Below are positions 28,764 to 29,028 of a stretch of 50,069 bases of DNA, piece by piece. Positions within the stretch are counted from its first letter, which is position 1; every line of letters starts with the position of its first letter. The notes under the pieces were generated by a model. The model saw only the letters and a list, made by a program, of their open reading frames with translations. It was not told the origin of the DNA and searched no databases. Position numbers and translations under genes: made by a program. This DNA is from a virus (lineage: Duplodnaviria; Heunggongvirae; Uroviricota; Caudoviricetes): the IMG/VR virus record IMGVR_UViG_641522650_000006. One strand, 5' to 3'.

Positions 28764-29028
28764 AAAATGAGAATAACCAGTTCCCTGAAGGCGACGTAGC
28801 CCGGTACAAGAGTAACCCACGTTAGCGCTTGGCGACGGCGGAACAAAGCTGATTCGCGACGTAAGAAAGTGGCAGGCTCATATGACGGACCTCTGTAATG
28901 CGGTATCCAACCCGCGAATATCAGCGTGATTCACCGTCGGATTTACTGCTACGTCGCCCTCAGGGAATTAAACCTAAAAAGAAAATCGTCAAAATTAGAG
29001 ATTCCGGTTTGACACGGAAAGTCATATC
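28764..29028 (+). ncRNA. candidate structured ncRNA (bridge/seek-RNA-like) in the IS110-family 3' end
   Basis: 20-bp inverted repeat TTCCCTGAAGGCGACGTAGC / GCTACGTCGCCCTCAGGGAA enclosing ~140 nt; internal GTAAG, GGCAG, TATGAC motifs match the insertion junction. Confidence 0.35.

What the first reader, a model, noticed from the sequence alone, without database searches (positions are those of the whole stretch)
28764..29028. Candidate bridge-RNA-like ncRNA in the 3' end of the IS110-family element
The ~265 bp after the transposase stop is non-coding and closed by a 20-bp inverted repeat (28781-28800 and 28943-28962, one mismatch) around ~140 nt. Inside, GTAAG (28861-28865), GGCAG (28871-28875) and TATGAC (28881-28886) reproduce in order the junction sequence GTAAG-GCAG-TATGAC formed where the element meets the IS66-family IR. 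That is what a guide segment pairing with target and donor would look like. Mirrored copy at 36011-36275.
Basis: partly seen in the sequence, partly recalled or inferred. Interest (0 to 1): 0.8.

Follow-up and report, generated by a model that had tools for sequence, protein, structure and literature searches.

The report
ISSso6 bridge (seek) RNA, guides remapped

Summary
The 265-nt region after the transposase stop codon belongs to ISSso6, an IS110-family element of the IS1111 group. It holds a 187-nt structured RNA domain (28781-28967). This is a bridge RNA, also called a seekRNA.

Evidence:
- The fold has a z-score of -4.6.
- Across 50 relatives, 97.7% of predicted pairs hold, and 10 pairs show compensatory changes.
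- A covariance model built only from relatives finds both window copies at E=1.6e-48, on one strand only.
- Two loop segments covary with the flanking target DNA across 26 guide types (0 of 10,000 permutations reach the observed match).

Guide assignments:
- RTG, 28822-28830, is complementary to the core plus right target.
- LTG, 28859-65 (ACGUAAG), is identical to the left target plus core.
- The donor guides are AUAUCAG (28918-24) and UACUGC (28944-49).

GGCAG is an invariant structural motif. TATGAC is a variable loop and stem position. The right arm of the inverted repeat is 5 nt off the stated coordinates.

The class is known (Durrant 2024; Siddiquee 2024), and Durrant's Supplementary Table 5 already lists ISSso6 with a bridge RNA in its right end.

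One minor possibly new detail: the base after the left-donor guide tracks the first target base and never the cognate donor base. That is a handshake-like signature.

The parts
27511..29028 (+). ISSso6 (IS110 family, IS1111 group), copy 1, from left end GCAGTATGAC... to right end ...GTCATATC
   Evidence: 99.9% identical to elements annotated ISSso6. Boundaries come from the uninterrupted ISEc23 inverted repeat GTAAGCGTCAACGG compared with the window junctions.
27509..27510 (+). Core dinucleotide AG, left copy. The right copy is at 29029-29030.
   Evidence: These are the only two bases ambiguous between the element and the empty site GTA-AG-CGTC. In relatives the junctions read xAG at the left and AG or AA at the right.
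27515..27528 (+). Left subterminal inverted repeat TATGACTTTCCGTG. Its partner is at 29013-29026.
   Evidence: 14/14 complementary (I3). It lies 4 nt from the left end, and its partner 2 nt from the right end.
27636..28763 (+). DEDD transposase / bridge recombinase gene (375 aa)
   Evidence: Pfam DEDD_Tnp_IS110 plus Transposase_20. NCBIfam NF033542 'IS110 family RNA-guided transposase', 273.8 bits against a cut-off of 140.
28781..28967 (+). Structured bridge/seek RNA domain: helices P1-P7, comprising a target-binding arm and a donor-binding multiloop
   Evidence: Fold z=-4.64. Consensus structure of 47 pairs, 97.7% of cells paired, 10 pairs with compensatory changes, slid controls no higher than 46%. 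A covariance model built from relatives only gives 195.5 bits, E=1.6e-48, on the + strand against 31 bits on the - strand.
28781..28800 (+). P1 5' arm.
   Evidence: I1. 5 of its 19 pairs show compensatory changes in relatives.
28801..28888 (+). Target-binding arm: P2 (28801-05/28884-88), P3 (28810-13/28876-79), P4 (28817-20/28869-72), an internal loop carrying both target guides, P5 (28832-37/28850-57) and a variable apical hairpin
28822..28830 (+). Right-target guide (RTG) UUAGCGCUU. It pairs with the top strand 5'-A|AG|CGTCAA-3' (last left-target base, core, right target). On this site it makes 7 Watson-Crick pairs, 1 G.T and 1 mismatch.
   Evidence: An unbiased scan of alignment columns against flank positions shows columns 57-52 complementary to right-flank positions R8-R13 (z 4.6-8.6). 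Per-locus table. Permutation test.
28859..28865 (+). Left-target guide (LTG) ACGUAAG. It is identical to the top strand of the left target plus core, so it pairs with the bottom strand.
   Evidence: Columns 93-96 are identical to left-flank positions L-16..L-13 (z 3.5-8.9). It matches the left flank 5/7 at copy 1 (ATAGTAAG) and 7/7 at copy 2 (ACGTAAG).
28871..28875 (+). It is structural, not a guide: G28871-G28872 close helix P4 and CAG is a bulge between P4 and P3.
   Evidence: Invariant in 48/50 relatives, while the first base of the left end varies (GGCAG junction in 13/50). Also kept in distant relatives whose left ends begin ACCC or ACAT. Helix map.
28881..28886 (+). It is not a guide: UAU sits in a variable internal loop and GAC belongs to the 3' strand of P2.
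   Evidence: Only 1/50 relatives have TATGAC here, whereas 44/50 have TATGAC in the subterminal repeat. Helix map.
28918..28925 (+). Left-donor guide (LDG) AUAUCAG, identical to the right-end tip ATATC plus core AG. It is followed by C28925, a handshake-like base identical to the first right-target base.
   Evidence: Conserved in relatives, in the single-stranded multiloop. It changes with the right end in distant relatives (ATACC-A, CATCGG-AG, CATG-AG). The base after it equals RT1 in 36/43 and RD1 in 0/50.
28944..28949 (+). Right-donor guide (RDG) UACUGC, the reverse complement of the left-end start GCAGTA (27511-27516)
   Evidence: the only reverse-complement match of 6 nt or more to the left junction. 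UACUG is conserved in the aligned relatives with few exceptions, for example L015 and L064. Covariation is not testable because the donor ends are nearly invariant.
29009..29014 (+). TTGACA, the -35 half of a promoter completed only in the excised circle: TTGACA-N17-CAGTAT, with the -10 half at 27512-27517
   Evidence: Read from the sequence. TTGACA is present in 55/57 relatives, always 17 nt from a CAGTAT-like hexamer across the joined ends. Function is inferred from ISEc11 Pjunc (PMC11187229).
29031..29050 (+). Rest of the interrupted IS66-family (ISEc23-like) terminal inverted repeat, CGTCAACGGAGCACCG...; this is the right target
   Evidence: IS66 TnpC is encoded at 29056-30375 on the - strand.
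36011..37528 (-). ISSso6 copy 2, mirrored. Its RNA domain is at 36072-36258 on the - strand, and it sits at the same position of a second IS66-family inverted repeat.
   Evidence: Identical to copy 1 except for the SNP at 27900. Covariance-model hit at 36072-36263 (-), 195.5 bits.

Best explanation
28781-28967 encodes the bridge RNA (seekRNA) of ISSso6, transcribed in the same sense as the transposase gene.

Architecture. A long closing helix (P1) carries two functional regions.
- A target-binding arm has an internal loop whose 5' side (RTG, UUAGCGCUU) pairs with the top strand of the core AG plus the right target. Its 3' side (LTG, ACGUAAG) pairs with the bottom strand of the left target plus the core.
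- A multiloop presents AUAUCAG (LDG, which pairs with the bottom strand of the right-end tip plus core) and UACUGC (RDG, which pairs with the top strand of the left-end start).

Proposed action. The RNA is bound by the DEDD/Tnp recombinase and brings the circularised element's joined ends next to the sequence GTA-AG-CGT(C/T)AA. That sequence is the tip of the terminal inverted repeat of IS66-family elements. Recombination occurs at the shared AG core.

Shown here:
- the structure, its strand specificity and its covariation;
- covariation of both target guides with the flanks;
- conserved complementarity of the donor guides;
- the insertion site.

Inferred from published work on ISEc11 and IS621:
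- transcription, probably from a promoter assembled at the circle junction (TTGACA-N17-CAGTAT);
- binding to the recombinase;
- the chemistry of strand exchange.
For: - Identity: the element is ISSso6. The protein matches DEDD_Tnp_IS110 plus Transposase_20 and NF033542 'IS110 family RNA-guided transposase'. It has 14-bp subterminal inverted repeats.
- Structure: fold z=-4.64. The non-coding region is 73-88% conserved in 80 relatives whose proteins are 70-81% identical. The consensus structure has 8 helices, 97.7% of cells paired and 10 compensatory pairs; slid controls give 33-46%.
- Strand: many G.U pairs, and a covariance-model score of 195.5 against 31 bits for the two strands, show an RNA read on the + strand.
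- Target guides: an unbiased scan gives exactly two diagonals, RTG and LTG. Across 26 distinct guide types, each type matches its own flank at 4.15/6 (RT) and 3.19/5 (LT) positions, against 1.55 and 1.70 for other types' flanks. The total is 191 against 88.6 +/- 8.4, with 0/10,000 permutations reaching it.
- Natural reprogramming: close enterobacterial relatives (85-95% aa identity) have almost the same RNA and differ most conspicuously in the RTG (TTAGCGCT, TTGACGCT, GCTACGCT), besides the apical hairpin and a few other positions. All sit at GTAAG|CGT..., and those at 85% identity lie next to IS66-family genes.
- Donor guides: distant relatives (42-49% identity) have donor-guide segments that change with their own ends.
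- Literature: the guide order, top-strand match 5' of bottom-strand match, is the one reported for IS1111 seekRNAs. Donor guides in a multiloop are as noted for IS1111 bridge RNAs. ISSso6 is listed as 'bridge RNA end = RE'.
Against: - There is no expression or binding data for this RNA.
- No sigma-70-like promoter or intrinsic terminator is predicted inside the non-coding region, so the transcript ends are unknown.
- Rfam 15 has no matching family.
- The donor-guide assignment rests on conserved complementarity. Covariation is visible only in four distant relatives whose element boundaries I inferred rather than proved.
- The RTG is imperfect on this particular target: one C.A mismatch and one G.T.
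- The two window copies lie in a large inverted duplication, so they may not be independent insertion events.
Confidence: 0.93

Rival explanations
1. One reading: one contiguous stretch (28861-28886) is the guide, reading GTAAG-GGCAG-TATGAC as a copy of the left junction, that is, target plus donor.
For: The three motifs are present, in order, within 26 nt, and they literally reproduce the junction at 27506-27520.
Against: - GGCAG is invariant in 48/50 relatives, although the junction pentamer is GTCAG, GACAG and others in 37/50.
- TATGAC occurs in 1/50 relatives, although the subterminal repeat keeps TATGAC in 44/50.
- Both motifs map largely onto helices P4 and P2.
- The unbiased scan finds no association of these columns with any flank position.
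Confidence: 0.03
2. The region acts at the DNA level, as a hairpin or cruciform or as transposase-binding sites near the right end, and not as an RNA.
For: It lies 60 nt from the right end and is closed by a 20-bp inverted repeat.
Against: - The helices tolerate G.U pairs (G.U in 22/50 at pair 21:189, 49/50 at 161:173 and 47/50 at 164:170; U.G in 28/50 at 41:109). On the other strand these would be A.C mismatches.
- The covariance model scores 195.5 bits on + against 31 bits on -.
- Loop bases track the target DNA rather than the element's own ends.
Confidence: 0.02
3. It is only a structured 3' UTR that stabilises or terminates the transposase mRNA, with no guide function.
For: It follows the stop codon immediately, and no promoter of its own is predicted.
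Against: - No U-tract follows P1, and no terminator is called on the + strand in the non-coding region.
- A stabiliser would not need loop sequences that covary with the flanking target on both strands.
Confidence: 0.02

Closest known systems
ISEc11 seekRNA (IS1111 family; Siddiquee et al. 2024, PMC11187229)
   Same: - Encoded in the non-coding region downstream of a DEDD transposase gene, in an element with subterminal inverted repeats.
- A stem-closed RNA with one segment complementary to the top strand placed 5' of one complementary to the bottom strand. The two matches overlap at the insertion point.
- Natural retargeting among close relatives by changes in the guide only (ISEc11 versus ISXne4; here ISSso6 versus its relatives at 85-95% identity).
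- A promoter assembled at the circle junction.
   Different: - The transposase is only about 22% identical (identity matrix seen) and is longer: 375 aa against 330-350 aa.
- The target differs: GTAAG|CGT... (IS66 inverted-repeat tip) against GTGAAAATACTG.
- Nothing about ISSso6 has been tested experimentally.
IS621 bridge RNA (Durrant et al. 2024, PMC11208160; Hiraizumi et al. 2024, PMC11208158)
   Same: - Two-part guide: both strands of the target and both strands of the donor are read around a shared core dinucleotide.
- The recombinase has RuvC-like DEDD and Tnp domains.
- A base next to a guide matches the non-cognate partner and avoids the cognate one, which is handshake logic.
   Different: - The RNA is in the right end, after the gene, not in the left end.
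- The target loop has the RTG 5' of the LTG, the reverse order.
- The donor guides sit in a multiloop rather than an internal loop.
- The core is AG rather than CT.
- The subterminal repeats are long (14 bp).
- The handshake-like base adjoins the bottom-strand guide (LDG), not the RTG or RDG.
[quoted passage not shown]
   Same: Same group, same right-end location, and donor-binding nucleotides in a multiloop. ISSso6 itself was flagged by their covariance models.
   Different: In the text and the supplementary files searched (the first 200 of 222), I found only the end in which a bridge RNA was detected for ISSso6. I found no guide map, target or structure for it.
IS4321/IS5075 (IS1111 family; Partridge & Hall 2003, cited)
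   Same: An IS1111-group element that inserts at a fixed position in the terminal inverted repeat of another transposon.
   Different: The prey is Tn21-family inverted repeats, not IS66-family inverted repeats, and it is a different transposase subfamily. This comparison rests on the paper's title and on general knowledge; it was not tested here.

Membership tests
IS110 family, IS1111 group insertion sequence | DEDD (RuvC-like) N-terminal domain plus a Tnp (PF02371) C-terminal domain | tested here: met
   PF01548 at 1.3e-11 and PF02371 at 8.2e-24. NF033542 at 273.8 bits, above the cut-off of 140.
IS110 family, IS1111 group insertion sequence | Subterminal inverted repeats of 7-17 bp, a short left end and a long right end | tested here: met
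   A 14-bp perfect subterminal repeat lies 4 nt from the left end and 2 nt from the right end. The left non-coding end is 125 nt and the right non-coding end 265 nt.
IS110 family, IS1111 group insertion sequence | Site-specific insertion without a target duplication beyond a shared core | tested here: met
   Empty site GTAAGCGTC against filled GTA-AG-[IS]-AG-CGTC. The same position is used in other genomes.
Bridge RNA / seekRNA | Conserved structured ncRNA in the long non-coding end, on the transposase strand | tested here: met
   (195.5 against 31 bits by strand).
Bridge RNA / seekRNA | An internal loop whose two sides pair with opposite strands of the target and overlap at the core, and which covaries with the target | tested here: met
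   (26 guide types, 0/10,000 permutations). The order is top-strand match first, as reported for IS1111.
Bridge RNA / seekRNA | Donor-binding guides complementary to both element ends around the core | tested here: inconclusive
   AUAUCAG equals the right-end tip plus core, and UACUGC is the reverse complement of the left-end start. Both are conserved and unpaired in the multiloop. The donor ends are almost invariant in the 50 relatives, so covariation is seen only in 4 distant elements whose boundaries are inferred.
Bridge RNA / seekRNA | The RNA is made, binds the recombinase, and is required in cis or in trans for circle formation and insertion | not testable with these tools
   No transcript or biochemical data are available. 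Shown for ISEc11, ISPa11, ISKpn4 and IS621 only.
Rfam-curated RNA family | A match to a curated covariance model | tested here: not met
   A cmscan of 27300-29200 at E<=10 returned only a spurious lncRNA hit. This says that Rfam 15 holds no model matching this RNA, not that the RNA is unreal.

The most novel reading that the evidence does not exclude
In the ISSso6 subfamily, the handshake guide sits next to the bottom-strand donor guide. The base after AUAUC-AG (C28925) equals the first right-target base in 36/43 relatives and never equals the cognate first left-end base (0/50, 7.5 expected). Two distant relatives carry 3-nt extensions of this kind.

If this is functional, it would mean that these IS1111-type recombinases exchange the bottom strand first. 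That is the mirror image of IS621. It would also give a design rule for seekRNA engineering that I did not find in the papers I searched.
Probability: 0.3. Interest if true: 0.45.

Novelty: already known. Interest (0 to 1): 0.2.

Why it matters
This is a correct call by eye of an RNA-guided recombination module, but the biology was established in 2024 and ISSso6 is already catalogued as carrying a bridge RNA in its right end.

What this analysis adds is local:
- A nucleotide-level guide map for ISSso6.
- The observation that ISSso6 and its enterobacterial relatives are guided to the terminal inverted-repeat tip of IS66-family elements. This explains the nested insertion-sequence scars on Shigella and E. 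coli plasmids.
- A set of 26 naturally reprogrammed guide and target pairs from one scaffold.
- A possible handshake position on the bottom-strand guide.

These could help anyone who wants to engineer an IS1111-type recombinase. They do not open a new question.

Tried and rejected
- Rfam 15 scan at E<=10: no relevant family.
- Promoter and terminator scan: nothing inside the non-coding region, so the RNA ends are undefined.
- ORFs overlapping the region: no Pfam family, so coding was rejected.
- GGCAG and TATGAC as donor guides: rejected by comparison.
- Covariation of the RDG with the left end: not informative, because the donor ends are nearly invariant. The variants L042, L064 and L070 show mismatches rather than compensation.
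- A handshake base next to the LTG (column 99 against the first left-end base): 16/50, not significant.
- The second and third bases after the LDG against the target: not significant in the Burkholderiaceae set.
- Column 160 against the first left-end base: z=4.5 in the first scan, but only 24/50 and out of register, so I treated it as noise.
- ISEc45 (L094) and a Rhizobium relative (L095): I could not define subterminal repeats, so I left them out.
- The variable internal loop between P2 and P3 (28806-09 / 28880-83): no association with any flank position, and its role is unexplained.

Full report
**What is in the sequence.**
- The ORF 27588/27636-28763 encodes a 375-aa protein with the DEDD_Tnp_IS110 and Transposase_20 domains. 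NCBIfam names it 'IS110 family RNA-guided transposase' (NF033542, 273.8 bits).
- The element is 99.9% identical to copies annotated ISSso6 on Shigella and E. coli plasmids.
- An uninterrupted ISEc23 (IS66-family) terminal inverted repeat reads tgt|GTAAGCGTCAACGGAGCACCG. The window reads GTA-AG-[GCAGTATGAC ... GTCATATC]-AG-CGTCAACGG.
- The element therefore spans 27511-29028. The core dinucleotide AG is present at both junctions (27509-10 and 29029-30).
- Perfect 14-bp subterminal inverted repeats lie at 27515-28 and 29013-26.
- A second copy on the minus strand (36011-37528) is identical from 27506 to 29070 except for one SNP at 27900. It sits at the same position in a second IS66-family copy, and the left flanks diverge exactly at the IS66 tip.

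**Checking the observation.**
- The three motifs are at the stated coordinates, and the region is non-coding.
- The 20-nt inverted repeat is real (19/20 complementary). Its right arm is at 28948-67, not 28943-62, and there are 147 nt between the arms.
- As RNA, the region folds to -88 kcal/mol against -66 +/- 4.7 for shuffles (z=-4.64, 0/200).

**Comparative evidence for a structured RNA.**
- A genome scan returned 80 loci, almost all Burkholderiaceae, encoding transposases 70-81% identical to this one.
- In nearly all of them the stretch matching 28779-28969 is 73-88% identical at the DNA level.
- A 50-sequence alignment (A1) gives a consensus structure of 47 pairs in 8 helices.
- In that structure 97.7% of cells are paired and 10 pairs show changes on both sides. 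Sliding the partners by 1-3 columns gives only 33-46% paired.
- The helices contain many G.U pairs. A covariance model built from 37 relatives, without the window sequence, finds both window copies at 195.5 bits (E=1.6e-48) on the transposase strand and only 31 bits on the other strand.
- So this is an RNA structure read in the sense of the transposase gene.
- In window coordinates:
  - P1 28781-800/28948-67
  - P2 28801-05/28884-88
  - P3 28810-13/28876-79
  - P4 28817-20/28869-72
  - P5 28832-37/28850-57
  - P6 28900-03/28912-15
  - P7 28927-30/28936-39

**Where the guides are.**
- For each relative I located the subterminal repeats and read both flanks.
- An unbiased scan of every variable alignment column against every variable flank position gave two clean diagonals.
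  - Columns 57-52 are complementary to the core G/A and the first five right-flank bases (z 4.6-8.6).
  - Columns 93-96 are identical to the four bases before the core on the left (z 3.5-8.9).
- These columns are the two sides of the internal loop between P4 and P5.
- In the window they are UUAGCGCUU (28822-30, RTG) and ACGUAAG (28859-65, LTG).
- After collapsing to 26 distinct guide types, each type matches its own flank at 4.15/6 and 3.19/5 positions, against 1.55 and 1.70 for other types' flanks. The total is 191 against 88.6 +/- 8.4, with 0/10,000 permutations reaching it.
- Examples of the reverse complement of the RTG against the actual right flank: AGCATAGCC against AGCATAGCC; AGCAGACC against AGCAGACCG; AACTGTCT against AACTGTCGA.
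- The order, top-strand match 5' of bottom-strand match with overlap at the core, is the one Siddiquee et al. report for IS1111-family seekRNAs.

- GTAAG is the 3' part of the LTG, so it is a true guide.
- GGCAG (28871-75) consists of the last two pairs of P4 plus a 3-nt bulge.
  - It is present in 48/50 relatives, although the junction pentamer is GGCAG in only 13/50.
  - It is kept (GGCAG or GGTAG) in distant relatives whose left ends start ACCC or ACAT.
  - It is a structural or protein-contact motif.
- TATGAC (28881-86) is part of a variable internal loop plus the 3' strand of P2. Only 1/50 relatives have it, although 44/50 keep TATGAC in the subterminal repeat.

**Donor guides.**
- The segments that fit the donor are AUAUCAG (28918-24), identical to the right-end tip ATATC plus the core, and UACUGC (28944-49), the reverse complement of the left-end start GCAGTA.
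- Both are conserved and lie in the multiloop closed by P1, P2, P6 and P7. Durrant et al. note this arrangement for many IS1111 orthologues.
- The donor ends are nearly invariant in this clade, so covariation cannot be tested there.
- In four elements at 42-49% protein identity, the homologous segment changes with the element's own right end: ATACC-A, CATCGG-AG, CATG-AG, ATA-AG. The boundaries of those elements are inferred.

**The target.**
- On the window's site the RTG makes 7 Watson-Crick pairs, one G.T and one C.A mismatch over 9 positions.
- A 95%-identical Salmonella element with the same RTG sits at GTAAG|CGTTAAC, where only the G.T remains.
- Relatives at 89% and 85% identity have almost the same RNA. 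The most conspicuous differences are in the RTG (UUGACGCU, GCUACGCU), alongside changes in the apical hairpin and a few other positions. They also sit at GTAAG|CGT..., and those at 85% identity lie next to IS66-family genes.
- Other E. coli sites include a truncated copy at AG|CGTAAAGCC beside another IS66-family element, and one weakly matched site, GGTAAG|TGAATG.
- This subclade is therefore guided to the tip of IS66-family inverted repeats. That parallels IS4321/IS5075 on Tn21-family inverted repeats, a comparison I draw from the literature and did not test.

**Expression (inferred).**
- No promoter or terminator is predicted in the non-coding region.
- Joining the right end to the left end would create TTGACA-N17-CAGTAT.
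- TTGACA is present in 55/57 relatives at exactly that spacing from a CAGTAT-like hexamer. This is the same arrangement as the junction promoter shown for ISEc11.
- The RNA would then be made from the circle, downstream of the transposase gene.

**A detail that may be new.**
- The base right after the LDG core (C28925) equals the first right-target base in 36/43 relatives (19.7 +/- 2.7 expected, 0/2000 permutations).
- It equals the first base of the element's own left end in 0/50 relatives (7.5 +/- 1.9 expected).
- In two distant relatives the extension is 3 nt.
- Matching the non-cognate partner and avoiding the cognate one is the signature of the IS621 handshake guides. In IS621, however, those adjoin the top-strand guides RTG and RDG.
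- I found no description of handshake guides for IS1111 or seekRNAs in the library.
- The equivalent position after the LTG shows no signal (16/50).
- The T and G classes that drive the signal may represent only four or five independent events, so this stays a lead.

**Comparison with what is known, and verdict.**
- This is a bridge RNA (seekRNA) of the IS1111 type.
- All sequence-level defining features that could be tested were met.
- Donor-guide covariation is inconclusive.
- Expression and recombinase binding are untestable here.
- The class was described in 2024 (PMC11208160, PMC11187229, PMC11208158).
- ISSso6 is explicitly listed in Durrant et al., Supplementary Table 5, as 'Detected Bridge RNA End: RE; group IS1111'. 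Its transposase is also in the seekRNA paper's data set.
- The finding is therefore correct and already known. Its guide-level reasoning was one-third right.

Noticed in passing
window 27506-30348 and 34691-37533; 31607-32798 and 33508-34699; 30349-31606: The two [ISSso6 in IS66-family inverted repeat] units form a large inverted duplication (99.9-100% identical). Copy 1 of the IS66-family element is further split by a 1258-bp IS3-family insertion (ORFs of 100 aa with HTH_Tnp_1 and 272 aa with rve). The two ISSso6 copies may therefore not be independent insertion events.
   Followed up: partly
window 27900 (mirror position 37139): This is the only difference between the two ISSso6 copies: T in copy 1 and C in copy 2. 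It changes ...SLISKKPG... to ...SLIPKKPG... in the transposase. The published ISSso6 protein has P, so copy 1 carries a Pro-to-Ser substitution of unknown effect.
   Followed up: partly
window 28925 (alignment A1 column 159): The base following the left-donor guide matches the first right-target base (36/43) and never the cognate first left-end base (0/50). This is a handshake-guide-like signature on a bottom-strand guide.
   Followed up: partly
window 29009-29014 with 27512-27517: Joining the element's ends would create TTGACA-N17-CAGTAT. Both the hexamer and the 17-nt spacing are conserved in 55-56 of 57 relatives.
   Followed up: partly
window 28806-28809 and 28880-28883: The internal loop between P2 and P3 is highly variable among relatives (ACAA/AUAU here). 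It shows no association with any flank position, and its role is unexplained.
   Followed up: partly
L055:2357-2669 and L075 (non-coding region of 395 nt): One relative carries an insertion of about 125 nt inside the RNA domain. Another has a tandem partial duplication of the 3' part of the RNA and the right end. L010 has extra fragments of the RNA sequence outside the element (positions 7-75 and 3352-3399).
   Followed up: no
L093 (Klebsiella plasmid NZ_CP095763.1, 28233-30730): A 49%-identical relative sits between qacEdelta1 and arr-3 in a class 1 integron. Its non-coding region contains AUCUAGAC, which matches its own left junction. It may be an attC-targeting member of the same subfamily.
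   Followed up: no
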